Shown in pieces: positions 357-30,491 of a stretch of DNA of 64,000 nt. Origin of the DNA: Candidatus Yanofskybacteria bacterium (lineage in GTDB: Bacteria > Patescibacteriota > Minisyncoccia > JACQLN01); NCBI GenBank assembly GCA_943359335.1, contig CALRHC010000002.1, positions 1,290 through 65,289 of the forward strand, written 5' to 3'. How positions within the stretch are numbered: position 1 is the stretch's first letter; each line of letters starts with the position of its first letter. The translations under genes and the position numbers were made by a program. Below the pieces are notes generated by a model. It was given only the letters and a program-made list of their open reading frames with translations. It was not told the DNA's origin and searched no databases.

Positions 357-440
357 GCCCAGGTGGCGGAATTGGCAGACGCACAGGACTCAAAATCCTG
401 CGATAGCAATATCATGAGGGTTCGACCCCCTCCCTGGGCA
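357..440 (+). tRNA. tRNA-Leu(CAA), type II with long variable arm
   Basis: GCCCAGG acceptor / CCTGGGC, D-arm GCGGAATTGGCAGACGC, anticodon loop CTCAAAA, variable arm CGATAGCAATATCATG, T-arm AGGGTTCGACCCCCT; CCA not encoded. Confidence 0.88.
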
Positions 441-453
441 CAATACTAAAAAT

Positions 454-7772: not shown

Positions 7773-10097
7773 TTAAACAATAAAATTTATAAACTTATCC
7801 TTAACAAATATAACTTTCTTTACTGGCGAAGTAAGATATTTAGAAATATTTTCGTTATTTTTAGCAGCTTCTTCAACATCTTTTTGCAAAGAGTCCACTG
7901 GCATTTTAATAACCGCGCGCATCTTAGCGTTTACTTGCACCACTATATCTACTTCTTTATCTTTAACCAGTTTAGAATCAAACTTTGGCCAAGGCGTTAT
8001 ATGAATAGATTTTTTATTCTTTAAAATTTCTCTAAATATCTCCTCGCTCATATGAGGCGCAAAAGGAGCCATGAGTTTAGCCAAAACTTCTAGTTCGTTT
8101 TTACCAACAGATTCCATATTAGCTTCAAATTCATTTAACAAAACCATCAAAGCCGAAACCGAAGTGTTATAACTCAAATTTTCTAAATCCTCTGTTACTT
8201 TTTTAATAGTCTTATTTAGAACTATTTGTAACTTAGGATTATCGTTTTGAGATTTGAGATTTAAAGTTTGAGATAAATTCCACACTCTATCTAAAAATCT
8301 GGTTATTCCTTTTATTCCACCGTCTCTAAAATCACCACCTTGATCAAACGGACCCAGAAACATTAAATACATTCTTAAAACATCAGCGCCATAATTTTTA
8401 ATGTATTCGTCGGGGTTAATAACATTACCCTTGGATTTAGACATTTTTGCGCCATCTTTTATCAATAATCCATGGGCACGGAATTTTTTAAATGGCTCGT
8501 CAAAATTGGTTAAACGTAAATCTTTAAATACCATCGCTAAAAATCGAACGTATAAAAGATGCAAAACAGAATGTTCTGCTCCGCCAATATACATATCTAC
8601 CGGAAACCATTTCTTAGTTACAGCTTGATCCCAAGCATATTTTTTATCTTTAACCGAAGCATAGCGCAAGTAATACCAAGCCGAATCTAAAAATGTATCG
8701 GAAACATCGGTTTCTCTTCTAGCTACTCCTTCGCATTTAGGACATTTAACTTTAAAAAACTTTTCGTCGGCCGCTAAAGGTGATTCGCTTGTACCGGTTG
8801 GTCTAAAGTTTTTTATGTAAGGTAACCTAACTGGTAAATCTTTTTCTGGCACCGGCTGCCAACCACATTTCTCACAATGAATCATTGGAATAGGTGCACC
8901 CCAATAACGTTGGCGAGAAACTAACCAATCCCGCAATCTAAATTGTGTTGTTTTTTTGCCCACACTCTTTTTTATCCCCTCCTCAATTGAAACGAGCGGC
9001 GCACCGCTTATCGCTAATTTAAATTTATTAGCGAATTCTAAATCGCGTTCATCGTGCGCTGGCACTCCCATAACTGCGCCTGTGCCATAACCTGCTAAAA
9101 CATAATCCGAAATCCAAACTGGAACCTTTTCGTTATTAGCTGGATTAATTGCAGAAATACCAGAAAAAATTCCGGATTTATCCTTATCTTGATTTTGATC
9201 GCGAGTAACTCTATCGGAAAGAGCTTTAGTAATATATTCTTTTACTTCTTCCGAAACTTGCCAACCAATATCTAACCAAAACTTTGCTTTCTCGGGCGAA
9301 ATTGCAATAAAGGTTACACCGAAAATTGTATCTGGGCGCGTGGTAAAAACTTCTACAAAATGTTTACCATCTTTTTGCCCTGTAACATCTGTTAAACGAA
9401 ATTTAATAGAAGCACCTTCCGATTTACCTATCCAATTTTTTTGAGCAATTTTTACTTTTTCACTCCAATCGATTTTATCTAAACCCTTTAAAAGCTTATC
9501 GGCATATTTAGTTATTCTAAAAAACCACTGCTCTAGTTCTTTTTTAATAACTTTTGTACCACATCTTTCACATTCACCACTTATAACCTGTTCGTCGGCT
9601 AAAACAGTTAAACAAGAAGGACACCAATTAACCGCAGATTTTTTGCGGTAAGCCAAACCTTTTTTATAAAGCTGTATAAAAATCCATTGTGTCCATTTGT
9701 AATATTCTGGGTCGTAAGTTTCTAATTTCTCATTCCAAGCAAAACCATTACCTATCATTTGTAGTTGGCGGTAAAAATTTTTCTCGGAAACTCTAGCTTG
9801 ATCCATTGGATGCTCGCCAATTTTTAAAGCATAGTTTTCGGAATGTATCCCAAAACCATCAAGCCCAATGGGCTCAAAAACATTAAAACCTTGCATTCTC
9901 TTAAAGCGACCATGAATATCACTCCCCACAAAAGCGTACATATTACCCACGTGCAATCCTTCGGCCGAAGGATACGGAAACATCATTAGGTTATAGAACG
10001 GATTTTTGGCATTTTTTAGATCTGGTTCATAAACCTTCTCAGCCAGCCATTTCTTATGCCACTTAGATTCTACTTTTTTATGATTATATTTGGCCAT
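7773..10097 (-). CDS. leuS: leucyl-tRNA synthetase
   Basis: 774 aa, HVGN(HIGH-type) and KMSKS motifs, C-terminal ...KVIFV..INFIV. Confidence 0.95.
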   Translation of the reverse strand: MAKYNHKKVESKWHKKWLAEKVYEPDLKNAKNPFYNLMMFPYPSAEGLHVGNMYAFVGSDIHGRFKRMQGFNVFEPIGLDGFGIHSENYALKIGEHPMDQARVSEKNFYRQLQMIGNGFAWNEKLETYDPEYYKWTQWIFIQLYKKGLAYRKKSAVNWCPSCLTVLADEQVISGECERCGTKVIKKELEQWFFRITKYADKLLKGLDKIDWSEKVKIAQKNWIGKSEGASIKFRLTDVTGQKDGKHFVEVFTTRPDTIFGVTFIAISPEKAKFWLDIGWQVSEEVKEYITKALSDRVTRDQNQDKDKSGIFSGISAINPANNEKVPVWISDYVLAGYGTGAVMGVPAHDERDLEFANKFKLAISGAPLVSIEEGIKKSVGKKTTQFRLRDWLVSRQRYWGAPIPMIHCEKCGWQPVPEKDLPVRLPYIKNFRPTGTSESPLAADEKFFKVKCPKCEGVARRETDVSDTFLDSAWYYLRYASVKDKKYAWDQAVTKKWFPVDMYIGGAEHSVLHLLYVRFLAMVFKDLRLTNFDEPFKKFRAHGLLIKDGAKMSKSKGNVINPDEYIKNYGADVLRMYLMFLGPFDQGGDFRDGGIKGITRFLDRVWNLSQTLNLKSQNDNPKLQIVLNKTIKKVTEDLENLSYNTSVSALMVLLNEFEANMESVGKNELEVLAKLMAPFAPHMSEEIFREILKNKKSIHITPWPKFDSKLVKDKEVDIVVQVNAKMRAVIKMPVDSLQKDVEEAAKNNENISKYLTSPVKKVIFVKDKFINFIV

Positions 10098-10166: not shown

Positions 10167-10997
10167 TTAGATACCAAAAACCGAACGAGCGTTTTCTATG
10201 GTGTGATGAGAAACTTCTTCGAAATCAATATTTTTTATTTCACCAATTTTTTTAGCCACCTCCGCCACATACACAGGCTCGTTACGCTGACCGCGAAATG
10301 GCGCTGGAGTTACATAAGGAGCATCAGTTTCTAAAAGCAAACGGTTAATAGGAACAGTTTTTATAATTTCGTCGTAATCGCGAGTAAAAGTTACTACACC
10401 ACCAAATGTAAAATAAAAACCCATATCTAAAAGCATGGTCGCTTGTTTCAAGTCACCACTAAAAAAATGTATTATACCCGGAACAGTTTGTAATTTATGC
10501 CGATTATCCCTTAAAACATTTAACAAATCGTCGAAAGCTTTGCGACAGTGAATCATTAAAGGTTTTTTAACCTCATATGCTAATTCTATTTGTTCTATGA
10601 AAACTTTCTCCTGTTTTTTTCTATATTCTGCCGAATGATAATAATCTAAGCCGCACTCACCTATAGCCACAACTTTTGGATTAAGTGCCAATTTTTTATA
10701 TTCTTCGTAATCAAAAACCTCACCCTTACTGGTAAATTCCGTTCCTCCTTCACCAAGCTCAGCTTTGTCATGAAAAGATTTATCGGTATGGACCGGATGT
10801 AAACCAACAGTTGCATAAACACCTTGCGAATACTTTTCGGCAAGTTTAATTGCTTCAAGAGAAGTGTCTTTTTGTGTACCAACATTTACCATCCAGATTC
10901 CAGCATCTAAAGATCTTTTTATAACTTCATCTCTATCGTCTTTATAGGCTACAAATTGAACGTGGGTATGGGCGTCGATTAATTTTGGATTATTCAT
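10167..10997 (-). CDS. tatD: TatD family metal-dependent DNase/hydrolase
   Basis: IDAHTH..., GECGLDY, ETDAPY motifs. Confidence 0.9.
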   Translation of the reverse strand: MNNPKLIDAHTHVQFVAYKDDRDEVIKRSLDAGIWMVNVGTQKDTSLEAIKLAEKYSQGVYATVGLHPVHTDKSFHDKAELGEGGTEFTSKGEVFDYEEYKKLALNPKVVAIGECGLDYYHSAEYRKKQEKVFIEQIELAYEVKKPLMIHCRKAFDDLLNVLRDNRHKLQTVPGIIHFFSGDLKQATMLLDMGFYFTFGGVVTFTRDYDEIIKTVPINRLLLETDAPYVTPAPFRGQRNEPVYVAEVAKKIGEIKNIDFEEVSHHTIENARSVFGI

Positions 10998-11228: not shown

Positions 11229-12692
11229 TTAACTCAACCTAGGAAACAAATTATCACCCTTCTTAAAATTAATAGATGACTCGGAAAACCAAATTTGTTT
11301 TCTAATCTTTTCGCCTGCTTCTGGTAAAAATGGTTCAACTAAGTTTAGAATAACACCAAGTAAATAACCAGAGTTAGTCATTATTTTTTTAAATTGTTCT
11401 TCGTCTTTAACTTCCCAAGGTTTTTTGTCATTAATATATTTATCGGCAAAAGAAATTAAACCCCAAACATTAATTAAGGCTTCGTGTAGTTTAATTTCGC
11501 TTAAAGAAGATTCGTATTCTTTATAAAAATCATTGCAAACTTTTTTAACCTCGGGTTCTATATCTATAGAAAAATCAAATTTTACTGGGCTAATTTTTTC
11601 GCCTAATGTAACTGTACGGGCTACTAAGTTACCCAAACCATTGGCTAAATCGGCGGAATATCTATCTTCAAACTTTCTCAAACTAAAATCTCCATCATCA
11701 TAAGAAGGGATTTCTCGTAAAAGATAATAACGCAACGCATCCGTTCCATATTTTTTAGCAAGCGACACAGGGTCTACAATATTACCCAAACTTTTAGACA
11801 TCTTTTGTCCTTCAACCGAAATAAAACCATGAACAAAAATAGATTTTGGTAATGGCAAACCAGCCGACAAAAGTATACCCGGCCAAATAGCGGCGTGAAA
11901 ACGTAGAATATCCTTGCCTATCACTTGGAGATCGGCTGGCCAAAGTTTTTTAAATTGTTCAGTTTCATTTCCGTAACCAACAGCTGTAATATAGTTAGCC
12001 AAAGCATCGCACCAAACATACATAACTTGTTGTGCATCATTTGGTACTGGAATACCCCAAGGCAAATCTTTTTTGGGTCTAGAGAAACTAATATCTTCCA
12101 AACCAGATTCTATAAAAGATAAAATTTCATTTTTGCGCGATTCTGGAATTATTCTTAATTCATCATTCCTAATTCTTAATTCTATTTCTTTTTGGTATTT
12201 TGAAAGTTTAAAAAACCAGTTTTCTTGCTCCACTGTTTCTGGTTCTTTTTGGTGATCTAGGCATTTACCATCTATTAAATCTTTTTCTGTTTTAAAAGAT
12301 TCACAACCAACACAATAAAGTCCATTATATTTTTTCTTATAAATATCGCCCGAATCCAAAAGTTTCTGCCACAGCTTTTGAACACCTGGCCAATGATTTT
12401 TTTGATCAGTTGTTCTAATAAAACCATCCCAAGAAAGATTTAAAACATCTTTTAACTGTTTAAAATATTCTGCGTTTTCATTTACAAAATCCTGCACATC
12501 TTTATTCTCTCTTTCGGCTGCACGAAAAATCTTAACACCGTGTTCGTCGGTACCTGTTAAAAAGAAAACATCGTCACCTTTTATTCTGTGATAACGTGCC
12601 AAAACATCCGCTTGAATCTTTTCTAAAGCGTGTCCAATATGTGGTTTACCATTAACATAATCAATGGCTGTTGTAATATAAAACTTGTTCAT
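11229..12692 (-). CDS. metG: methionyl-tRNA synthetase (short form)
   Basis: HIGH (PHIGH) and KMSKS motifs, 487 aa. Confidence 0.95.
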   Translation of the reverse strand: MNKFYITTAIDYVNGKPHIGHALEKIQADVLARYHRIKGDDVFFLTGTDEHGVKIFRAAERENKDVQDFVNENAEYFKQLKDVLNLSWDGFIRTTDQKNHWPGVQKLWQKLLDSGDIYKKKYNGLYCVGCESFKTEKDLIDGKCLDHQKEPETVEQENWFFKLSKYQKEIELRIRNDELRIIPESRKNEILSFIESGLEDISFSRPKKDLPWGIPVPNDAQQVMYVWCDALANYITAVGYGNETEQFKKLWPADLQVIGKDILRFHAAIWPGILLSAGLPLPKSIFVHGFISVEGQKMSKSLGNIVDPVSLAKKYGTDALRYYLLREIPSYDDGDFSLRKFEDRYSADLANGLGNLVARTVTLGEKISPVKFDFSIDIEPEVKKVCNDFYKEYESSLSEIKLHEALINVWGLISFADKYINDKKPWEVKDEEQFKKIMTNSGYLLGVILNLVEPFLPEAGEKIRKQIWFSESSINFKKGDNLFPRLS

Positions 12693-23015: not shown

Positions 23016-23270
23016 TTATTTTTTACTTCCCAATAACTTAGATAAAACAAAAGTGAAAAGTCCAATCATAACTGTCATAATGCCAGCATAAACAAATTTA
23101 GCTTGTACGGTATCTTTAGTTAAAGGAAAAGCATATTCAATAGAAGTCTTAACTGCATCGTTCCAAGCTAGACCCGCCACCAAACCCAATGCTGTTACAA
23201 TATAACCCAAAGTTTTTTCTCTAAGTTCTTGCCTAATCTCCGATTGAGTTTTTTTGATCCGATCCATCAT
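23016..23270 (-). CDS. small hypothetical membrane protein
   Basis: 84 aa, 2 TM. Confidence 0.4.
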   Translation of the reverse strand: MMDRIKKTQSEIRQELREKTLGYIVTALGLVAGLAWNDAVKTSIEYAFPLTKDTVQAKFVYAGIMTVMIGLFTFVLSKLLGSKK

Positions 23271-23289
23271 AAATTTATTTTACCATAAT

Positions 23290-23823
23290 TTAAGTTGCCA
23301 TTCCTTTTTTTAGACTTTTTCTTATAGCCAAATAATTAGGAACTGTTTTAGCTACCAAATTCCAAAAATTACGCGAGTGGTTAAATTCGCCCAAGTGGCA
23401 AAGTTCGTGAACAATAATATAATCTGCTTGTTCTGGCGATAACAAAGCAATTTTGTAATTAAAATTTAAGTTCCCCTTTTTAGAACAACTGCCCCAACGA
23501 GTTTTTTGGTTTCTTATATTTATTTTATTAAATTTAAAACCATAAAATTGGTTAAAATAACTAACTCGGTTTTGAGCCAGCGCCAAAGCTTCGGCTTTAT
23601 ATTTTTTAAAATCTTTTCTGCCTAGTAAAATTCTTGGAGTAAAAGGCTTAAAGCCTTCCAGCTTTTTTAAAATCCATTCTGTATTTTTAGTAACAAATTG
23701 GTTTATAAAATTCTGGCTCGCCGAATGCGGCGCGGTTAACACCACCGCGCCATCGCAATAAATAGCGAGCCGTAATCTTCTAGATTTTTTACTTAATTTT
23801 AGAGTGTATTTAATATCGCTCAT
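23290..23823 (-). CDS. YgjP-like (DUF45/M48-type) zinc metallopeptidase
   Basis: RWGSCS...ADYIIVHELCHLGEFNHSRNFW HExxH motif. Confidence 0.8.
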   Translation of the reverse strand: MSDIKYTLKLSKKSRRLRLAIYCDGAVVLTAPHSASQNFINQFVTKNTEWILKKLEGFKPFTPRILLGRKDFKKYKAEALALAQNRVSYFNQFYGFKFNKINIRNQKTRWGSCSKKGNLNFNYKIALLSPEQADYIIVHELCHLGEFNHSRNFWNLVAKTVPNYLAIRKSLKKGMAT

Positions 23824-23862
23824 TTAATCTTGATCTAATTTTACTTTCAAAACATTAAAAAA

Positions 23863-23884
23863 CCCAGCAGTACCACCTGCTGGG
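23863..23884 (-). terminator. hairpin CCCAGCAG-TACCAC-CTGCTGGG after 23895..24380 gene
   Basis: minus-strand T-run TTTTTTAATG. Confidence 0.6.
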
Positions 23885-23894
23885 TTAAATCTAC

Positions 23895-24380
23895 CTATGG
23901 AAGAACTTCTCTTTTGCTGAACAAAAGAGGGATTTCACATACAAGAAACACTATAGTAAAAATCATTAGATCGTTTATATCTCCACCATAATTTGATGCT
24001 TTACCCTTTGCGTTTGCCATATCACCCAAAGAAAGCTGAAACATCTCCACCATGATAGCGGCAACCCAAGAAAGAAAAATGGACTTAAGTAATATTTTTC
24101 TTAATGGGTTCTTGATAAAAAACGGTCCATCAAACATGGTTGCTATACCAAAAGCAAAGCCCGGAACAAAGAATACATCAGCCATGTACCAACGAATATA
24201 CCATGGACCGATAATCCAAGAGGAAAGGGCTTTTCCTACTGCCCAAAACAACAAGCAGTTCGCGCACATCCATGCCGTGTAGCTAGTTCTTTTAAACGCA
24301 ATAATCTGAAGAGGAAACAAGCCTATTGAGACTACAGTAAAGATAACCCTACCAACCATTAAAGGTGTGTAAAATTCCAT
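23895..24380 (-). CDS. hypothetical 4-TM membrane protein
   Basis: 161 aa, hydrophobic. Confidence 0.5.
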   Translation of the reverse strand: MEFYTPLMVGRVIFTVVSIGLFPLQIIAFKRTSYTAWMCANCLLFWAVGKALSSWIIGPWYIRWYMADVFFVPGFAFGIATMFDGPFFIKNPLRKILLKSIFLSWVAAIMVEMFQLSLGDMANAKGKASNYGGDINDLMIFTIVFLVCEIPLLFSKREVLP

Positions 24381-24464
24381 ACTAACCCTCCTTTGTTTTT
24401 ACTCATTTTATTTTAGAGAACTTGTAAAGATACTAAAACAAAGTATAAATAAAGTCAAGTTAAA

Positions 24465-24728
24465 TCAACCAATCCTTACGGGTTGAATTTGACCTTGGTT
24501 TAATTTTACTGCGGGTGCGCCGTGAATTAATTGTATGGTGCCTATCCTCTCGCCACACTTAGAACACAAAACACTTGCTCCAGTGGGCAAGTGTTTTGGC
24601 AAAGAAATATAGTCTTCTAAAATTCTGCCAAGAAAACATTTAATCAATCGGCCAGTGCCGGCTTTTTGATATTTAAAAATATCCTTTCCGCACTTACACT
24701 CCACAACAACAGTCGAAAGACGAGACAT
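24465..24728 (-). CDS. hypothetical zinc-ribbon protein
   Basis: CKC...C and CSKCGE pairs. Confidence 0.4.
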   Translation of the reverse strand: MSRLSTVVVECKCGKDIFKYQKAGTGRLIKCFLGRILEDYISLPKHLPTGASVLCSKCGERIGTIQLIHGAPAVKLNQGQIQPVRIG

Positions 24729-24939: not shown

Positions 24940-27900
24940 TTAAACCCTTTTGATTCCTACTCCAATCTCAAAACCTTCGTAATTCCAAACTTTGTGAACC
25001 AAGAAACTTTCGGTTTCGGTTATGCCAAAGTGAATTTGGGTAGAACGAGTTTCTTGTTTAATTACATCCTCCCAACGGGCTAATAATTCTTTAAAACCAG
25101 TGTTTTGGTTTAGTTCGTAATACAAAATTATTTTATCTTCGGGTGTTAACTTCGCTTCTTTTCTCATTTCGTTAATATTCCTAATCATCTCGCGCACCAT
25201 ACCTTCTTCTTTAAGTTCCGCCGTAAGCACAGTATCCAAACTAACACTATTTTTTTCTATTTTTCTATCGCTTAAAACTTTTTTAACATTAAGTTCTTCG
25301 GCCACAATGTATAAAACATCACCAATTAAATTGTAATCGGCTGGCGAAACATACAACGCATTAAGTGGCTGGCGTACGCGCAAACCTGCTTGAGCGCGTT
25401 CAGCAAGGCCCAATGCCACAATTTCGCGAGCTCTTTCCATAGCTTTCATAACATCGGAAGCTTTAACTGCTTTTGTATTTGGCCAAGGCTCTAAGTGAAC
25501 AGATTCTCTGTATCCAGCAACTTGAGTTAGATCTTTTAAGCTTTGGTGTAACCATTCCGATATAAACGGTGCGAATGGCGCCATTATAATTGCGGTGCGT
25601 TTTAAAACTTCGGTTAAAGTATTTTGAGCCGATAATTTTTCGGCATCTATATTTTGTTTTTGAAATTTGCGGCGGCTACGGCGAATATACCAATTAGAAA
25701 GTTCGTCTATAAATTCTTCTATGGCACGCGAAGCGGAAGTTATATCGTACGAATCTAAAAATTTATTTACATCAAATTCCAATTTTTCTAAACGCATTAA
25801 AACCCATTTATCTAGAATATCTGTTTTAGCCGCCAAAGATTTTGGAGGCACAACAAAATATGTTTCTAAAAACAAAAACGAATTAATTAGAGTATCGGCA
25901 AACCTGCGCTTTTTACTTTCTATATCGCGCATACTAAAAAGTTTATTATCGCCCGGCGCGTTTACAGTGTAAAAGTACCAACGCATCATGTCGAAACCAA
26001 CTTTCTCGCCTACCATCCATGGGTCTACAATATTCCCCTTCGATTTAGACATCTTTTCGCCTTTTTCATCTAATACATGGTTTAAACTAATTACATTTTT
26101 GTATGGCGCGCCTTCGCCCAAGGCTGTGCTAACCGCCATTAAGGTGTAGAACCAACCACGGGTTTGGTCGATAGCTTCGCAAATGTAATCTGCTGGAAAT
26201 TTGTCCTTACCCAAGTTTTGAGATTTAAGTTTTGAGATTTGAGATCCATGTTGGGCCCACGGCATCGCGCCCGAATCAAACCAAACATCGGCTAAGTCTT
26301 TTATACGTTCCATCTTTGAGGAACACATAGAACACTTGAGGAACACATTGTCTGCGTACGGGCGATGCAGGTTTAAATTCCCTTCTTCGTCGCGTGGCCA
26401 GTTATTTGTTTCTACAAAAGCAAATTCGGCAGGATCCAATGCTAACTTAGTGTTCTTAATTACGTTTCTATATAAAAGCGCTTCGTCTTCACCATAAATT
26501 CCGTTAGATAACAAAAGCAAAAATAGGGGATCCATATGGCTTACCACTGCAATTTTTTTACCCGCATGTTTTTTGGAAACTTCCACCATAAATTCACGAA
26601 CTCTTTTAGATACATCTAGCCACGATTCGCCTTCTGGTGGGCGGCGCATAAACCTTTCTTTATAGGAATTAAAATAGTTTTTATATTCAATCGCCGGCCC
26701 GCCGTTAAATTCGCCAGTATTAAGTTCGCGTAAACGTTCGTCGAAAATAACTTCTTTTATTTTTAATTCGTCGGCTAAAATTTGCGCAGTTTCGCGAGTG
26801 CGTAATAAATCGGAAGCATAAATTGCTACCACCTTTTCTTTATCTAATTGTTTTTTAATTTTCTTAGCGGATTCTTCTGCCTGCTTCCTACCTTTTTCGG
26901 TTAAAGGGTTTAAAAACTTTTCTGGGTAACAACTACACAAATTTTTTACATTAGATTCTGCCTCGCCGTGACGCATTAAAACCAAAGTAGCTGGGGTATC
27001 TGGGCGGTGTTGGTTAAGTTCTTCTAAAGAACCGATTACGGTTTTGTGTTCGCATTTGGTGCATTCCCAAATTGGCAGTGGCGTACCCCAATACCTTTCA
27101 CGGCTTATGGCCCAGTCCTTAACTTCGCGTAACCATTCGCCAAACCTACCTTCTTTAATGTGTTCGGGTACCCAATTAACTTTTTCGTTATTTTTAATTA
27201 AATCGCCACGTAACGCCGACATTTTTATAAACCAACTTTCTTGTGCGTAATATAGTAACGGCGATTTACAACGCCAACAGAATGGATATTCGTGTTTGTA
27301 GCTAGCTTCGCTAAATAACAAATTTTTTGTTTTTAAATAAAACAAAATTGTTTTTTCGGTTATAGGGTCTTTTTTGTTTTCGCTAACAATAGCAAGACCG
27401 CCTACCACTGGAACAGATTTTATAAAAACTCCTTCGCGATTAACCGTGTGGAATTTTGGCAAATTTAATTTGGTACCAAGTTCAAAATCGTCGGCGCCAT
27501 ACATTACTGCGGTATGCACAATCCCCGTGCCGTCTTCTGTGGTTACAAAATCGGCTTCGTAAACTTTGTAAGAATTTTCACTTTCTAATTCTTTAACTGC
27601 AAATAAAGCCTCGTAAGAAAGTTTGGTAAGATCACCCGCTTTTAATTCTTTATTTATTTTATATTCGTGTCCTGCTAAAACTTTCTCGGCCAAGTCTTTG
27701 GCTAAAATATATTTCTCACCGTTAACTTCGGCCTCTACATAAACAACTTTTGGCCCTACTGCCAAAGCAACATTACCTGGTAAAGTCCATGGCGTGGTAG
27801 TCCACGCTAATAAGTATGTATTTTCTAGTTCTTTAACTTTAAATTTTATAGTTACCGATCTATCTGTAACTGTTTCGTAACCTTGCGCCACTTCGTGGCT

Positions 27901-28455
27901 AGAAATCGGCGTACCGCAACGCACACAAAACGGAACGATTTTATAATCTTTAACTAAAAGTTTTTTATCGTAAATTCTTTTTAAAATATTCCAAACATTT
28001 TCTATGTATTGAGGTTCGTAGGTTATGTATGGATTTTTTAAGTCTAACCAGTAACCCATGCGGCGTGTCATTTTTTCCCATTCGTCTTTATATTGCCAAA
28101 CAGATTCTTGGCAATCTTTGTTGAATTTAGCAATGCCGTATTTTTCTACATCGCGTTTGTTTTTTAACCCAAGTTTTTTCTCTACTTCTATTTCTACCGG
28201 TAAACCATGAGTATCCCAACCTGCGCGACGTTGAACAAACCGTCCTTTCATGGTTTGAAAACGGCAAATAATATCTTTAAACGAACGCGCCACGATATGA
28301 TGAATACCTGGCTTGCCGTTAGCCGTAGGCGGGCCTTCGTAAAATACAAAAGGCTTACCATCTTTAGTGGCTTCTAATGTTTTTTCAAAAATCTGGTTAT
28401 CGTGCCAATGTTTTAAAACTTTTTCTTCTTCTTGAGGTAGATTTACTTGTCTCAT
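24940..28455 (-). CDS. ileS: isoleucyl-tRNA synthetase (type 2) carrying an inserted histidine phosphatase (PGAM-like) domain (approx residues 488-690)
   Basis: PPTANGKPGIHH, WTTTPWTLP editing motif, KMSKS; insert has LMRHGEAESN, DLLRTRETA, AVVSHMD. Confidence 0.93.
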   Translation of the reverse strand: MRQVNLPQEEEKVLKHWHDNQIFEKTLEATKDGKPFVFYEGPPTANGKPGIHHIVARSFKDIICRFQTMKGRFVQRRAGWDTHGLPVEIEVEKKLGLKNKRDVEKYGIAKFNKDCQESVWQYKDEWEKMTRRMGYWLDLKNPYITYEPQYIENVWNILKRIYDKKLLVKDYKIVPFCVRCGTPISSHEVAQGYETVTDRSVTIKFKVKELENTYLLAWTTTPWTLPGNVALAVGPKVVYVEAEVNGEKYILAKDLAEKVLAGHEYKINKELKAGDLTKLSYEALFAVKELESENSYKVYEADFVTTEDGTGIVHTAVMYGADDFELGTKLNLPKFHTVNREGVFIKSVPVVGGLAIVSENKKDPITEKTILFYLKTKNLLFSEASYKHEYPFCWRCKSPLLYYAQESWFIKMSALRGDLIKNNEKVNWVPEHIKEGRFGEWLREVKDWAISRERYWGTPLPIWECTKCEHKTVIGSLEELNQHRPDTPATLVLMRHGEAESNVKNLCSCYPEKFLNPLTEKGRKQAEESAKKIKKQLDKEKVVAIYASDLLRTRETAQILADELKIKEVIFDERLRELNTGEFNGGPAIEYKNYFNSYKERFMRRPPEGESWLDVSKRVREFMVEVSKKHAGKKIAVVSHMDPLFLLLLSNGIYGEDEALLYRNVIKNTKLALDPAEFAFVETNNWPRDEEGNLNLHRPYADNVFLKCSMCSSKMERIKDLADVWFDSGAMPWAQHGSQISKLKSQNLGKDKFPADYICEAIDQTRGWFYTLMAVSTALGEGAPYKNVISLNHVLDEKGEKMSKSKGNIVDPWMVGEKVGFDMMRWYFYTVNAPGDNKLFSMRDIESKKRRFADTLINSFLFLETYFVVPPKSLAAKTDILDKWVLMRLEKLEFDVNKFLDSYDITSASRAIEEFIDELSNWYIRRSRRKFQKQNIDAEKLSAQNTLTEVLKRTAIIMAPFAPFISEWLHQSLKDLTQVAGYRESVHLEPWPNTKAVKASDVMKAMERAREIVALGLAERAQAGLRVRQPLNALYVSPADYNLIGDVLYIVAEELNVKKVLSDRKIEKNSVSLDTVLTAELKEEGMVREMIRNINEMRKEAKLTPEDKIILYYELNQNTGFKELLARWEDVIKQETRSTQIHFGITETESFLVHKVWNYEGFEIGVGIKRV

Positions 28456-28541: not shown

Positions 28542-29015
28542 TTATTCGAAGACGAGGAAACCCTTGAGTTTCTCGATGGTACTCTTGCTCTCAAGAACTT
28601 CTCCCCCAATCTCCAAAGAAAACGTTACGGGCTCATTGGGGAATGTCCCGCCAAATACTGCAGTAGGACTTTCGAAGAAGATCTTCAGCTTTTTTGTGAT
28701 CTTGGTTACAAGGTGCTGCAAGCTTACATCTACAGCTTCCCAGATACCACAACCAACCACAGCAAGAGCTGAAAAATCAGGGCCTCCGCTGGGAATATCC
28801 CTTAAAGGGAAGGTTACCAAGAAATCAACTTCGCATTCTCTGAGGTTTCCACTTTTCGTTTCTCTATGCAACAAAATACCTAACACTAAATAGTTATTTT
28901 TGACATTCCACTTAACCTGAACAAGAACTTCTGTACCTTTCGGCAAAGTAATATGCTTGTAACACTTTACTTTGTTTCTGGGCAAGTCCAAGTATTCATG
29001 ACTTTTTATAAGCAT
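28542..29015 (-). CDS. hypothetical protein in GC-rich island
   Basis: AAGGAG SD 9 nt upstream of ATG; composition distinct from flanks; overlapping + ORFs are probably GC artefacts. Confidence 0.5.
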   Translation of the reverse strand: MLIKSHEYLDLPRNKVKCYKHITLPKGTEVLVQVKWNVKNNYLVLGILLHRETKSGNLRECEVDFLVTFPLRDIPSGGPDFSALAVVGCGIWEAVDVSLQHLVTKITKKLKIFFESPTAVFGGTFPNEPVTFSLEIGGEVLESKSTIEKLKGFLVFE

Positions 29016-29120: not shown

Positions 29121-29567
29121 TTGTTAATGGAAGCAAAAACAAACAAAAAAGCATTTTTTAATTATGAAATCCTCGAGACATTCGAGGCGGGTTTGGTTTT
29201 GCTTGGCGGTGAAGTTAAGTCTATAAGGAATAGCCACTATAGTTTACAGGGCGCATACATAGTTGTAGAAGATGAAGAAGCTTGGTTAGTGAAAGCTATG
29301 ATCGCCCCCTACCAACCTAAAAACATGCAAAAGGGTTATGACCCCGAACGCAGGCGAAAACTTTTACTTAATAAAAAAGAACTTCAATATTTACAAGGAA
29401 AAACCAAAGAAAAAGGATTGACTATTGTGCCATTAAAAGTCTATAATAAGCACGGTCAAATCAAACTAGAAATTGGTTTAGCTAAAGGTAAAAGCAAGGG
29501 CGATAAACGAGAAGTTTTAAAAAAACGCATCGCCGAAAGAGATATCGCCAGAGAACTAAAGTATTAG
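29121..29567 (+). CDS. smpB: SsrA-binding protein
   Basis: 148 aa SmpB fold, TTG start. Confidence 0.9.
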   Translation: MLMEAKTNKKAFFNYEILETFEAGLVLLGGEVKSIRNSHYSLQGAYIVVEDEEAWLVKAMIAPYQPKNMQKGYDPERRRKLLLNKKELQYLQGKTKEKGLTIVPLKVYNKHGQIKLEIGLAKGKSKGDKREVLKKRIAERDIARELKY

Positions 29568-29605
29568 ATCTTTAATATTTTTATAGTTTAGAATTTTACT
29601 TTTAA

Positions 29606-29964
29606 GGGGATGACTTGAATCGTCAAGGAACGTATCGATAAGAATTCGAAGCTGAGGTATACCACAAACTCATAAAACTGGTTACAAATAGTAAGTGCAA
29701 ACTTATTTAACGCTAAACCAGCGTTTGCCGTAGCTTAAAATCTATCGGCCATCGCCCTGTTTTTGCCCAAGAAGACAGTGTGCGGTGTTAACCTTTTGGG
29801 CTGCTGTCTAATGAAGGCGAACTTTAGACTTAAGACAATCGCCGAAAGTTTAACTTTTTTCACCATTCTTTAAGGGTTAAACTTAAACCAAGAATGGTTA
29901 GGCTTCGTAGCAGTTCAATCGAGAAATTTTTTGCACGCGGGTTCAATTCCCGCCATCTCCACCA
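29606..29964 (+). ncRNA. ssrA: tmRNA (transfer-messenger RNA)
   Basis: 5' GGGGATG pairs with CATCTCC-A-CCA 3'; T-arm GGTTCAATTCC; tag ORF GCA AAC TTA TTT AAC GCT AAA CCA GCG TTT GCC GTA GCT TAA (ANLFNAKPAFAVA) at 29697-29738. Confidence 0.9.
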
Positions 29965-29999
29965 CTTCGCTCCTCAAATAAAATAGATAAAACAAAAGT

Positions 30000-30491
30000 T
30001 TGAAAATAAATAACCAAATACGTTCCGAAAAATTAGTAGTTATAGATGAAACCGGCAAAAGCTTGGGTGTTTTAAGCTTGCAAGAAGCCTTAAAAATAGC
30101 CAAAGAAAAAGGTATGGATTTGGCGGAGGTTAACCCTACCGCTACCCCACCAGTTGCCAAAATCATAGATTATGGTAAATTTGAGTACCGCCAAAGGAAA
30201 GCAGAACAGAAGATGAAAGCTGCAAACAAACGGCAGGAGCTTAAAACGGTACGTATAGGGCTTAAAACATCTGTTCACGATACCGAGGTAAAAGCCGGTT
30301 TGGCCGATAAATTCTTAAAAAAGGGCGACCAAGTTAAGTTAGAAATATTCTTAAAAGGCAGAGAAAAGGCCTTTAGAGATCTCGCCAGAACAAAATTAGT
30401 AGCCTTCGAAAAAATGGTTACCGAACAGCATAAAACAGATGGCACGCCAGCAAGCTCACCTTCTGGATGGTCTATAACAATACATAAATAA
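30000..30491 (+). CDS. infC: translation initiation factor IF-3 (non-ATG start)
   Basis: IRSEKLVVIDETGKSLGVLS..., 163 aa. Confidence 0.9.
   Translation: MKINNQIRSEKLVVIDETGKSLGVLSLQEALKIAKEKGMDLAEVNPTATPPVAKIIDYGKFEYRQRKAEQKMKAANKRQELKTVRIGLKTSVHDTEVKAGLADKFLKKGDQVKLEIFLKGREKAFRDLARTKLVAFEKMVTEQHKTDGTPASSPSGWSITIHK

What the first reader, a model, noticed from the sequence alone, without database searches (positions are those of the whole stretch)
26388..26994. Isoleucyl-tRNA synthetase with an embedded histidine-phosphatase (PGAM-like) domain
Residues approx 488-690 lie between the end of the editing/CP region (..WGTPLPIWECTKCEH) and the ..LHRPYADN..KMSKS half. They form a complete histidine phosphatase superfamily branch-1 domain with every catalytic signature: LMRHGEAESN (phospho-His), DLLRTRETA (Arg), ERLRELNTGEF (Glu), AVVSHMD (second His). 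Canonical IleRS has only a short linker here. An apparently intact phosphatase inside an aaRS would be a new domain architecture. Possible roles are dephosphorylation of a nucleotide/alarmone or a moonlighting function.
Basis: partly seen in the sequence, partly recalled or inferred. Interest (0 to 1): 0.7.

Follow-up and report, generated by a model that had tools for sequence, protein, structure and literature searches.

The report
Phosphatase domain embedded in IleRS
The isoleucyl-tRNA synthetase of this Patescibacteria (CPR) genome carries a complete, apparently active histidine-phosphatase domain in one loop of its catalytic core; related genomes encode the same phosphatase as a separate gene just upstream of ileS, so the two proteins look like long-standing partners whose joint role is unknown.

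Summary

It is not unique to this genome. All 120 best database homologues (Paceibacteria/Parcubacteria lineages) carry the insert, and some have UniProt and NCBI accessions. I found no paper that describes it.

New here: the closest free-standing relatives of the insert are almost always encoded between argS and ileS. Among 80 species-representative loci, 39 have the phosphatase embedded in ileS and 37 have it free-standing just upstream of ileS. None has two copies. On an IleRS tree the two states switch at least 4 times.

Best reading: an active small-molecule-type phosphomonoesterase, captured repeatedly from the neighbouring gene into one permissive hairpin of IleRS, and probably a functional partner of IleRS. 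The substrate is unknown. It does not pass the tests for a dPGM, a SixA-type phosphatase or an intein.

The parts
24940..28455 (-). ileS ORF, 1171 aa: type-2 isoleucyl-tRNA synthetase with an inserted phosphatase domain
   Evidence: ORF list. TIGR00392 at 861.6 bits against cut-off 621.4. Pfam tRNA-synt_1, His_Phos_1, Anticodon_1 and DUF5915. AF2 model with pLDDT 90.9 and pTM 0.83. Foldseek TM 0.81-0.90 (target-normalised) to solved IleRS2 structures.
27004..28455 (-). IleRS aa 1-484: N-terminal Rossmann half, CP1 editing domain, CP2, strand WGTPLPIW, first Zn knuckle and a short helix
   Evidence: Aligns to 8C8W residues 11-478.
28297..28308 (-). Non-canonical HIGH motif G50-I-H-H53 (GXHH type)
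   Evidence: Read from the sequence. G50, H52 and H53 are at least 90% conserved in the family. GXHH is the mupirocin hyper-resistance variant described for IleRS2 (PMC10485003).
27052..27063 (-). First half of the Zn knuckle, C465-x-x-C468
   Evidence: C465 is invariant and C468 is at least 90% conserved in 119 homologues.
26395..27003 (-). Insert, aa ~485-687: N-linker plus a complete histidine-phosphatase (branch 1) domain
26509..26985 (-). Pfam His_Phos_1 match, aa 491-649
   Evidence: E=1.4e-32.
26965..26973 (-). R495-H496-G497: RHG motif with the phospho-accepting histidine
   Evidence: R and H invariant in 119/119, G in 115/119.
26800..26802 (-). R552: second phosphate-binding arginine
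   Evidence: Invariant in 119/119. Aligns with the corresponding Arg of PhoE.
26725..26727 (-). E577: predicted general acid (LRE motif)
   Evidence: E in 108 and D in 11 of 119 sequences. Aligns with the LREIHLG motif of PhoE.
26536..26538 (-). H640: second catalytic histidine (SH motif)
   Evidence: Invariant in 119/119.
26323..26334 (-). Second half of the Zn knuckle, C708-x-x-C711
   Evidence: Both invariant.
24943..26394 (-). IleRS aa 688-1171: native linker P-x-D-E-x-G-x-L-N-L-HRPY, second Rossmann half with KMSKS, and anticodon-binding domains
   Evidence: Aligns to 8C8W residues 484-890. Anticodon_1 and DUF5915.
26041..26055 (-). KMSKS motif, aa 801-805
   Evidence: K801, M802, S803 and S805 invariant.
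29121..30491 (+). Conserved context: smpB (29121-29567), tmRNA (29606-29964), infC (30000-30491), divergent from ileS
   Evidence: ORFs and Rfam tmRNA. The same smpB / infC-rpmI-rplT block flanks argS-phosphatase-ileS or argS-ileS::phosphatase in related loci.

Best explanation
The insert is a catalytically competent branch-1 histidine phosphatase of the short, small-molecule type (like PhoE, PspA or GpgP).

Predicted mechanism: it works through the family's phospho-histidine mechanism. His496 accepts the phosphoryl group. Arg495, Arg552 and His640 hold the phosphate. Glu577 protonates the leaving group.

Position: it sits as an independent globular domain at the tip of the zinc-knuckle hairpin in the second half of the IleRS Rossmann fold. 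IleRS itself keeps all of its own catalytic and editing motifs.

Origin: the domain was captured from the gene that lies directly upstream of ileS (between argS and ileS) in related Patescibacteria. The two arrangements, neighbour gene and embedded domain, are mutually exclusive and have interchanged several times.

Function: one copy expressed together with IleRS is what is kept. I infer that the phosphatase is a functional, probably physical, partner of IleRS. It most likely hydrolyses a small phosphorylated compound, and the covalent tether is useful but not essential.

Shown: domain identity, conserved catalytic residues, insertion site, origin from the neighbour gene, repeated switching. 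Inferred: enzymatic activity, partnership with IleRS, class of substrate.
For: Domain identity and integrity:
- Pfam E=1.4e-32.
- PhoE and PspA are the best solved sequence relatives.
- R495, H496, R552, E610, R618 and H640 are invariant, and E577 is E or D, in 119 homologues whose inserts are on average only 39.7% identical pairwise.

Independent, well-folded domain inside an intact IleRS:
- AF2 pLDDT 90.9 and pTM 0.83.
- KMSKS, the Zn cysteines and the editing motifs are invariant.

Origin and linkage:
- Free-standing relatives at 40-49% identity to the window's insert (up to 72% to the embedded domains of other clades) lie directly upstream of an insert-less ileS.
- Among 80 GTDB species loci, 39 are embedded, 37 are free-standing with ileS downstream (24 within 100 nt), 4 show no ileS, and none has two copies.
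- Syntenic sister loci differ only in where the phosphatase sits: L004 (argS-phos-ileS) against L010 and L011 (argS-ileS::phos).
- Bootstrapped NJ trees: free-standing P0137/P0139 group with embedded P0034/P0027 in 200/200 replicates. The insert-less L004 IleRS groups with embedded hosts in 95/100. Monophyly of embedded forms is recovered in 0 replicates.
- At least 4 state changes are needed on a 73-gene IleRS tree, against 19-24 when the states are shuffled.
- One ArgRS-phosphatase fusion also exists.
Against: - No activity or substrate has been measured.
- The arrangement rplT-rpmI-infC / smpB / argS-phos-ileS-recO could be inherited housekeeping gene order, with no functional meaning.
- The phosphatase works equally as a free protein, so tethering is not required.
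- Three loci (L064, L082, L091) have it away from ileS.
- The genes occasionally found between the phosphatase and ileS are heterogeneous.
- I could not read model coordinates, so the position of the phosphatase pocket relative to the IleRS active site is unknown.
- The trees are NJ on divergent sequences. The number and direction of switches are approximate.
Confidence: 0.55

Rival explanations
1. The phosphatase is an independent housekeeping metabolic enzyme. It could be the phosphoglycerate mutase reported missing in some Parcubacteria, a PspA-like phosphoserine phosphatase, or a broad PhoE-like phosphatase. Under this reading it has no functional link to aminoacylation. It entered ileS by neutral capture of the neighbouring gene into a permissive loop in streamlined genomes.
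For: - The top structural neighbours are metabolic small-molecule phosphatases.
- The best NCBIfam hit is archaeal dPGM, although far below its cut-off.
- Jaffe et al. 2020 report that PGM is absent in several shallow Parcubacteria clades, possibly because it is too divergent to detect (PMC7304191).
- Free-standing and embedded forms are interchangeable, and a few loci have the gene away from ileS.
Against: - dPGM models are not met: 93 bits against 225, and 35 against 81.7.
- By my own reading against E. coli GpmA, the dPGM substrate-binding signatures (ERHYG, HGNSLR) are absent. Instead the subfamily has its own S-x-W-P-E-K loop.
- Neutral capture does not easily explain at least 4 switches at the same loop, or linkage to ileS in 76 of 80 loci even where the IleRS is of a different subtype.
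Confidence: 0.28
2. The phosphatase acts on a macromolecule of the aminoacylation system. One option is that it removes an inhibitory phosphate from IleRS or ArgRS, such as one placed by a HipA-type toxin kinase near the KMSKS loop. Another is that it heals a 2'/3'-phosphate at the tRNA 3' end so that the tRNA can be charged.
For: - The gene lies between two class I synthetase genes and is fused to either of them.
- It sits in the Rossmann-fold half that carries KMSKS.
- One locus has P-loop kinase (Zeta_toxin/AAA_33) genes next to ileS.
- That HipA and HipT target GltX and TrpS is from my own knowledge.
Against: - The SixA model scores 34.5 against a cut-off of 74.5.
- No kinase is consistently nearby.
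- No histidine phosphatase is known to me to act on RNA ends.
Confidence: 0.1
3. The insert is a catalytically dead structural module (a pseudo-phosphatase), or the finding is an artefact: an assembly chimera, a frameshift fusion or an intein.
For: One related contig (L001) shows split genes of the kind produced by sequencing errors.
Against: - The catalytic residues are invariant across 119 sequences despite about 40% mean identity in the insert.
- The same in-frame architecture is seen in at least 120 protein clusters from many samples and sources.
- There is no compositional break.
- There is no Hint/intein domain hit, the junction residues are variable, and there is no conserved C/S/T at the start or H-N at the end.
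Confidence: 0.03

Closest known systems
PhoE (Geobacillus stearothermophilus, PDB 1EBB/1H2E) and PspA phosphoserine phosphatase (Hydrogenobacter thermophilus, 4IJ5): short branch-1 histidine phosphatases
   Different: Those are free-standing enzymes. This one is embedded in an aaRS, or encoded next to one. Its subfamily has its own S-x-W/Y-P-E-K-x-x-x-P-L-T loop after the RHG motif. It falls below every NCBIfam equivalog cut-off, so no specific substrate can be assigned.
Type-2 IleRS with the non-canonical GXHH motif (Brkic et al. 2023, PMC10485003; PDB 8C8W)
   Same: Best solved relative of the host enzyme (802 bits; TM 0.81). Same GXHH signature motif, Zn knuckles, KMSKS and ARD-type C-terminus.
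   Different: The solved enzymes have about 5 residues where this protein has a ~203-aa phosphatase domain.
Other two-enzyme proteins that contain a histidine-phosphatase domain: mycobacterial MutT1 (Nudix + His phosphatase; 3FJY, 9CXX) and Rv2228c (RNase H + CobC-like acid phosphatase; NCBIfam NF005567)
   Same: A branch-1 histidine phosphatase is joined to an enzyme of nucleotide or nucleic-acid metabolism. Both appear among the hits.
   Different: Those are end-to-end fusions. Here the domain is nested inside the partner's catalytic fold, and the partner is an aaRS.
Idiosyncratic insertions and fusions in class I aaRS, such as the leucine-specific domain of bacterial LeuRS (own knowledge) and 'IleRS with GNAT domain' (NCBIfam NF040702)
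   Same: Extra modules are grafted onto or into the Rossmann fold of class Ia synthetases. NF040702 shows that IleRS can carry an additional enzymatic domain.
   Different: The leucine-specific domain is not an enzyme. The GNAT model is matched only through the IleRS part (297.9 bits against cut-off 1999). I know of no described aaRS with an inserted phosphatase.

Membership tests
Histidine phosphatase superfamily, branch 1 (Pfam PF00300) | Profile match above the curated threshold | tested here: met
   113.4 bits against cut-off 21.7, E=1.4e-32, aa 491-649.
Histidine phosphatase superfamily, branch 1 (Pfam PF00300) | Catalytic core: RHG nucleophile His, two Arg, second His, acidic proton donor | tested here: met
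   R495, H496, R552 and H640 invariant; E577 is E or D in 119/119. They align with the catalytic residues of PhoE.
Histidine phosphatase superfamily, branch 1 (Pfam PF00300) | Alpha/beta fold of the family | tested here: met
Histidine phosphatase superfamily, branch 1 (Pfam PF00300) | Phosphatase or mutase activity through a phospho-histidine intermediate | not testable with these tools
   Needs an enzyme assay with an H496A control.
Cofactor-dependent phosphoglycerate mutase (dPGM) | Match to the curated dPGM equivalog models | tested here: not met
   NF038349 at 93.4 bits against 225. TIGR01258 at 35.1 against 81.7. All GpmA/GpmB models are far below their cut-offs.
SixA-type phosphohistidine (protein) phosphatase | Match to TIGR00249 and the short ~155-aa fold | tested here: not met
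Isoleucyl-tRNA synthetase, type 2 | Equivalog model TIGR00392 above its cut-off | tested here: met
   861.6 bits against 621.4, in two stretches interrupted by the insert.
Isoleucyl-tRNA synthetase, type 2 | Class I signature motifs, editing domain and type-2 C-terminus | tested here: met
   KMSKS at aa 801-805 is conserved (K801, M802, S803 and S805 invariant; K804 in at least 90%). The HIGH motif is present as the known IleRS2 variant GIHH. WTTTPWT and GTG.VH editing motifs are invariant. Anticodon_1 and DUF5915 are present. TM 0.81-0.90 to solved IleRS2.
Isoleucyl-tRNA synthetase, type 2 | Ile-tRNA(Ile) formation, and status as the only IleRS of the genome | not testable with these tools
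   No second ileS in the 64-kb window. The whole genome is not available.
Intein / Hint domain | Hint fold, conserved C/S/T at the N-junction, H-N plus C/S/T at the C-junction | tested here: not met
   No Hint or intein Pfam hit. Junction columns 483-490 are variable and the C-junction is N-W-P-R-D-E-E-G.

The most novel reading that the evidence does not exclude
The phosphatase is an obligatory accessory subunit of IleRS in Paceibacteria. As a free protein it docks on the zinc-knuckle hairpin next to the synthetic site, and that is why evolution has repeatedly welded it into exactly this loop. Its activity is coupled to aminoacylation. It might destroy a phosphorylated nucleotide by-product or a natural inhibitor of IleRS, or it might reverse an inhibitory phosphorylation. 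This would make it the first aaRS with a built-in phosphatase activity serving translation.
Probability: 0.22. Interest if true: 0.8.

Novelty: new variant of a known kind. Interest (0 to 1): 0.62.

Why it matters
Aminoacyl-tRNA synthetases are among the most conserved enzymes, and extra domains in them usually mark added functions such as editing, regulation or signalling. Here an apparently active phosphatase is nested in the catalytic fold of an essential synthetase across a large part of the Patescibacteria. The same enzyme is otherwise kept as the gene directly in front of ileS.

This gives three things:
- a strong guilt-by-association link between IleRS and a phosphatase of unknown role in organisms with minimal genomes;
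- a natural series of 'free' and 'embedded' states that can be compared biochemically;
- a clear case of repeated neighbour-gene capture into the same loop, which is useful for understanding how nested domain architectures arise.

It also explains why NCBI names many of these proteins only 'class I tRNA ligase family protein', and it may bear on the reported gap for phosphoglycerate mutase in Parcubacteria.

Tried and rejected
1. Assembly chimera or frameshift fusion: rejected. Contig L001, which seemed to show a split ileS (P0133), has many split genes and is an error-ridden assembly.
2. Intein: rejected.
3. The duplicated 'HRP' (LNQHRPD before the insert, LNLHRPY after it) looked like a target-site duplication. 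The first copy is not conserved in homologues (columns 483-485), so it is coincidence.
4. dPGM, CobC, PspA and SixA equivalog membership: every score is below its cut-off.
5. A functional theme in the genes between the free phosphatase and ileS: HIT and NUDIX genes in two loci looked suggestive, but other loci have toxin-antitoxin-like, PLP-enzyme-like or unknown ORFs, by my reading of the translations and not confirmed with Pfam. There is no consistent theme.
It worked with 10 sequences.
8. Eight literature searches found no description of the fusion.
9. My first bootstrap run had a distance-cap bug that produced NaN values. It was repeated correctly.
10. argS, which precedes the phosphatase or ileS in most relatives, is not next to ileS in this window. 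An unannotatable 157-aa ORF sits there instead.
Full report
**What is there**

The finding lies inside one long ORF, window 24940-28455 on the minus strand, 1171 aa.

- Pfam splits the protein into tRNA-synt_1 (two stretches), His_Phos_1 at aa 491-649 (E=1.4e-32, 113.4 bits, cut-off 21.7), Anticodon_1 and DUF5915.
- NCBIfam's isoleucine-tRNA ligase equivalog TIGR00392 is passed (861.6 bits against 621.4), again in two stretches.
- Aligned to the solved type-2 IleRS of Priestia megaterium (8C8W), residues 7-484 match 11-478 and residues 692-1108 match 484-890. About 203-207 residues therefore stand where the solved enzyme has about five.
- Comparison with insert-less relatives places the insert at about aa 485-687. 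The following P-x-D-E-x-G-x-L-(D/N)-L-H-R-P-Y is native IleRS sequence.
- The insertion point lies between the two halves of a zinc knuckle (C465-x-x-C468 ... C708-x-x-C711, conserved). This is after the strand WGTPLPIW and a short helix, in the second half of the Rossmann fold and about 110 residues before KMSKS (aa 801-805).

**Is it real and intact?**

- Base composition runs smoothly through the insert.
- All 120 best homologues in a 5.8-billion-protein collection (47-100% identical; 119 full-length proteins of 1111-1249 aa plus one 848-aa partial) carry PF00300 as well.
- In an alignment of 119 of them, R495, H496, R552, E610, R618 and H640 are invariant. G497 is present in 115/119. The predicted general acid E577 is E (108) or D (11).
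- Mean pairwise identity of the insert is only 39.7%, against 61-63% for the IleRS catalytic core and 44% for the anticodon-binding part. The catalytic residues are therefore under strong purifying selection in a domain that otherwise diverges fast.
- AlphaFold2 on this alignment gives mean pLDDT 90.9 and pTM 0.83, with block means of about 86-97 across aa 490-650 and one soft segment at about 650-670.
- The host part superposes on solved IleRS2 structures with target-normalised TM 0.81-0.90.
- Protein-directed members match less well: SixA 17.6, tau55 15.2, PGAM5 14.8, Sts-2 14.1.
- No NCBIfam equivalog threshold (dPGM, GpmB, CobC, PspA, SixA) is reached. The domain can be called a short small-molecule-type histidine phosphatase, but no substrate can be assigned.
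- The subfamily has its own loop after the RHG motif: S-x-(W/Y)-P-E-K-x-x-x-P-L-T.

**Where it comes from**

Searching with the insert alone returned mostly free-standing proteins of 186-218 aa, 40-52% identical, and where a source names the organism it is a Patescibacteria lineage.

- In every contig I looked up, that gene lies on the same strand just upstream of an insert-less ileS (945-1035 aa). It is usually preceded by argS, and the block is divergent from smpB and infC-rpmI-rplT. The window shows the same smpB-tmRNA-infC neighbourhood.
- A scan of one genome per GTDB species returned 80 loci, which I classified with tblastn probes:
  - 39 have the phosphatase embedded in ileS.
  - 24 have it free-standing with ileS starting within 100 nt, often with overlapping stop and start codons.
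  - 13 have it free-standing with one or two variable genes before ileS.
  - 4 are free-standing with no ileS in view. One of these ends at the contig edge, and one (L082) still follows what reads as an ArgRS gene by its N-terminal sequence.
  - None has two copies.
- The named lineages are Staskawicz-, Nealson-, Portnoy-, Azam-, Wildermuth- and Liptonbacteria, Paceibacter normanii and Paceibacterota. Many MAGs carry generic or probably wrong labels.
- In a search of 1.84 billion 50%-identity representatives, 1,255 proteins match at E<=1e-10. Of the best 149, 65 are free-standing, 60 are full IleRS with the insert, 23 are fragments of such proteins, and one is an ArgRS-phosphatase fusion.

**Repeated switching**

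- Free-standing and embedded forms are interleaved in both trees.
- Free-standing P0139 is 72.5% identical to the embedded domain of P0027, and P0137 is 65% identical to that of P0034.
- By my reading of the sequences, P0137 and P0034 share two distinctive indels.
- In bootstrapped NJ trees, P0137+P0139 group with the embedded domains of P0034/P0027 in 200/200 replicates. The insert-less IleRS of L004 (the locus encoding P0137) groups with the embedded hosts P0034, P0027, P0028 and P0053 in 95/100. Monophyly of embedded forms is never recovered.
- The syntenic loci L004 (argS-phos-ileS-x-recO) and L010/L011 (argS-ileS::phos-x-recO) differ only in the position of the phosphatase coding sequence.
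- On a 73-gene IleRS tree (35 embedded, 38 free), at least 4 state changes are needed (4-5 across 100 bootstraps), against 19-24 for shuffled states.
- Ten of 72 domains have their nearest relative in the other state.
- L074 and L083, which have a different IleRS subtype, show a shorter C-terminal junction that looks like a separate insertion event.
- The free state occurs with all IleRS subtypes and in the lineages that branch outside the embedded groups. I therefore take it as ancestral and the embedded state as captured more than once. A reversal in some lineages cannot be excluded.
- I did not work out the DNA mechanism by which a whole ORF moves about 1.45 kb downstream, in frame.

**How it most likely works**

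- Shown: the domain has everything the family needs for catalysis, and it folds as a separate globule on a hairpin of an otherwise complete IleRS.
- From established knowledge of the family: His496 would be transiently phosphorylated; Arg495, Arg552 and His640 bind the phosphate; Glu577 is the proton donor.
- Inferred: three observations argue that it works together with IleRS, and that the Zn hairpin is either the only permissive site or the place where the free protein docks.
  - A single copy is always kept.
  - That copy is almost always co-transcribed, and often translationally coupled, with ileS.
  - It has entered the same loop several times.
- The loop follows a Rossmann strand. By general knowledge of such folds, it should emerge on the nucleotide-binding face. 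I could not check this on coordinates.

The main rival is that this is an ordinary housekeeping phosphatase or mutase whose linkage to ileS is inherited gene order and whose capture was neutral. Jaffe et al. 2020 note that PGM is missing in several shallow Parcubacteria clades, but the dPGM tests fail here. A protein- or tRNA-directed role is possible but less supported. The pseudo-enzyme and artefact readings are effectively excluded.

**Novelty**

- Both families are well known, and proteins with this architecture have been in public databases since at least the 2016 groundwater genomes (UniRef100_A0A1G2LBS9, OHA09096.1). NCBI often names them only 'class I tRNA ligase family protein'.
- Eight full-text searches found no description of the fusion.
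- Two recent IleRS evolution studies do not use the word 'phosphatase' in their main text. One of them compiled 96,219 IleRS sequences and annotated their domain architectures.
- I rate it a new variant of a known kind. The embedded-or-adjacent alternation and its recurrence are, as far as I can tell, unreported.

**Limits**

- No activity data, no whole genomes and no model coordinates were available.
- The trees are NJ only.
- The GTDB census is biased by the two peptide patterns used in the scan.

Noticed in passing
window 28297-28308 (-), aa 50-53 of IleRS: The class I HIGH signature is the swapped form G-I-H-H (GXHH). Brkic et al. 2023 (PMC10485003) showed that this form confers mupirocin hyper-resistance on IleRS2. 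It is conserved in the whole family (consensus PGIHH).
   Followed up: partly
window 28542-29015 (-): A 157-aa ORF with no Pfam match sits between smpB and ileS. Most relatives have argS (and the free phosphatase) at this position. No argS was found anywhere in the 64-kb window.
   Followed up: partly
window 29121-30491 (+): smpB, tmRNA (Rfam 106.8 bits) and infC lie in a row, divergent from ileS. This block is conserved next to the ileS locus across many Patescibacteria loci.
   Followed up: yes
P0277 (689 aa, from the 50%-identity representative library): An ArgRS with the same phosphatase fused to its C-terminus (Arg_tRNA_synt_N, tRNA-synt_1d and DALR_1, then His_Phos_1 at aa 509-671). This is a second synthetase-phosphatase fusion. 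It is a single example and could be a stop-codon loss or a sequencing error.
   Followed up: partly
L007 6558-7043; L009 6630-7121 and 11415-11924; L019 and L060/L072 gaps: Variable accessory genes are wedged between the free phosphatase and ileS. These include a HIT-family gene overlapping the phosphatase stop codon, NUDIX genes and Zeta-toxin/AAA_33 P-loop kinase genes, all by Pfam. Some ORFs look like a RelE-type toxin pair and Cas2-like proteins, by my reading only. There is no consistent theme.
   Followed up: partly
L001 (ENA contig_258, 63.8 kb): ileS::phosphatase appears split into three ORFs, but infC, SIS, DUF4147 and MOFRL genes on the same contig are split as well. This is most likely frameshift errors from sequencing, not a genuinely split IleRS.
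   Followed up: yes
window 7773-10097 (-), 10167-10997 (-), 11229-12692 (-): LeuRS, a TatD-family DNase and MetRS are clustered. Neither synthetase carries an extra enzymatic domain.
   Followed up: yes
window 23016-24728 (-): Downstream of ileS lie an 87-aa protein with two CxxC pairs (no Pfam match), a 161-aa membrane-like ORF (no Pfam match), a YgjP-like metallopeptidase (E=1.1e-42) and a DUF5654 protein. In relatives the corresponding position holds a small unknown ORF and recO.
   Followed up: partly
L074 and L083 (Liptonbacteria-type loci), junction region: The embedded phosphatase has a shorter C-terminal junction (...KIDVGIADLHRPYID), and the host IleRS is of a different subtype (RYWGNPIPVW, with an extended first knuckle). 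This suggests an independent insertion at the same loop.
   Followed up: partly
window 357-441 (+): ARAGORN finds a single tRNA gene, tRNA-Leu(CAA), in the 64-kb window.
   Followed up: no
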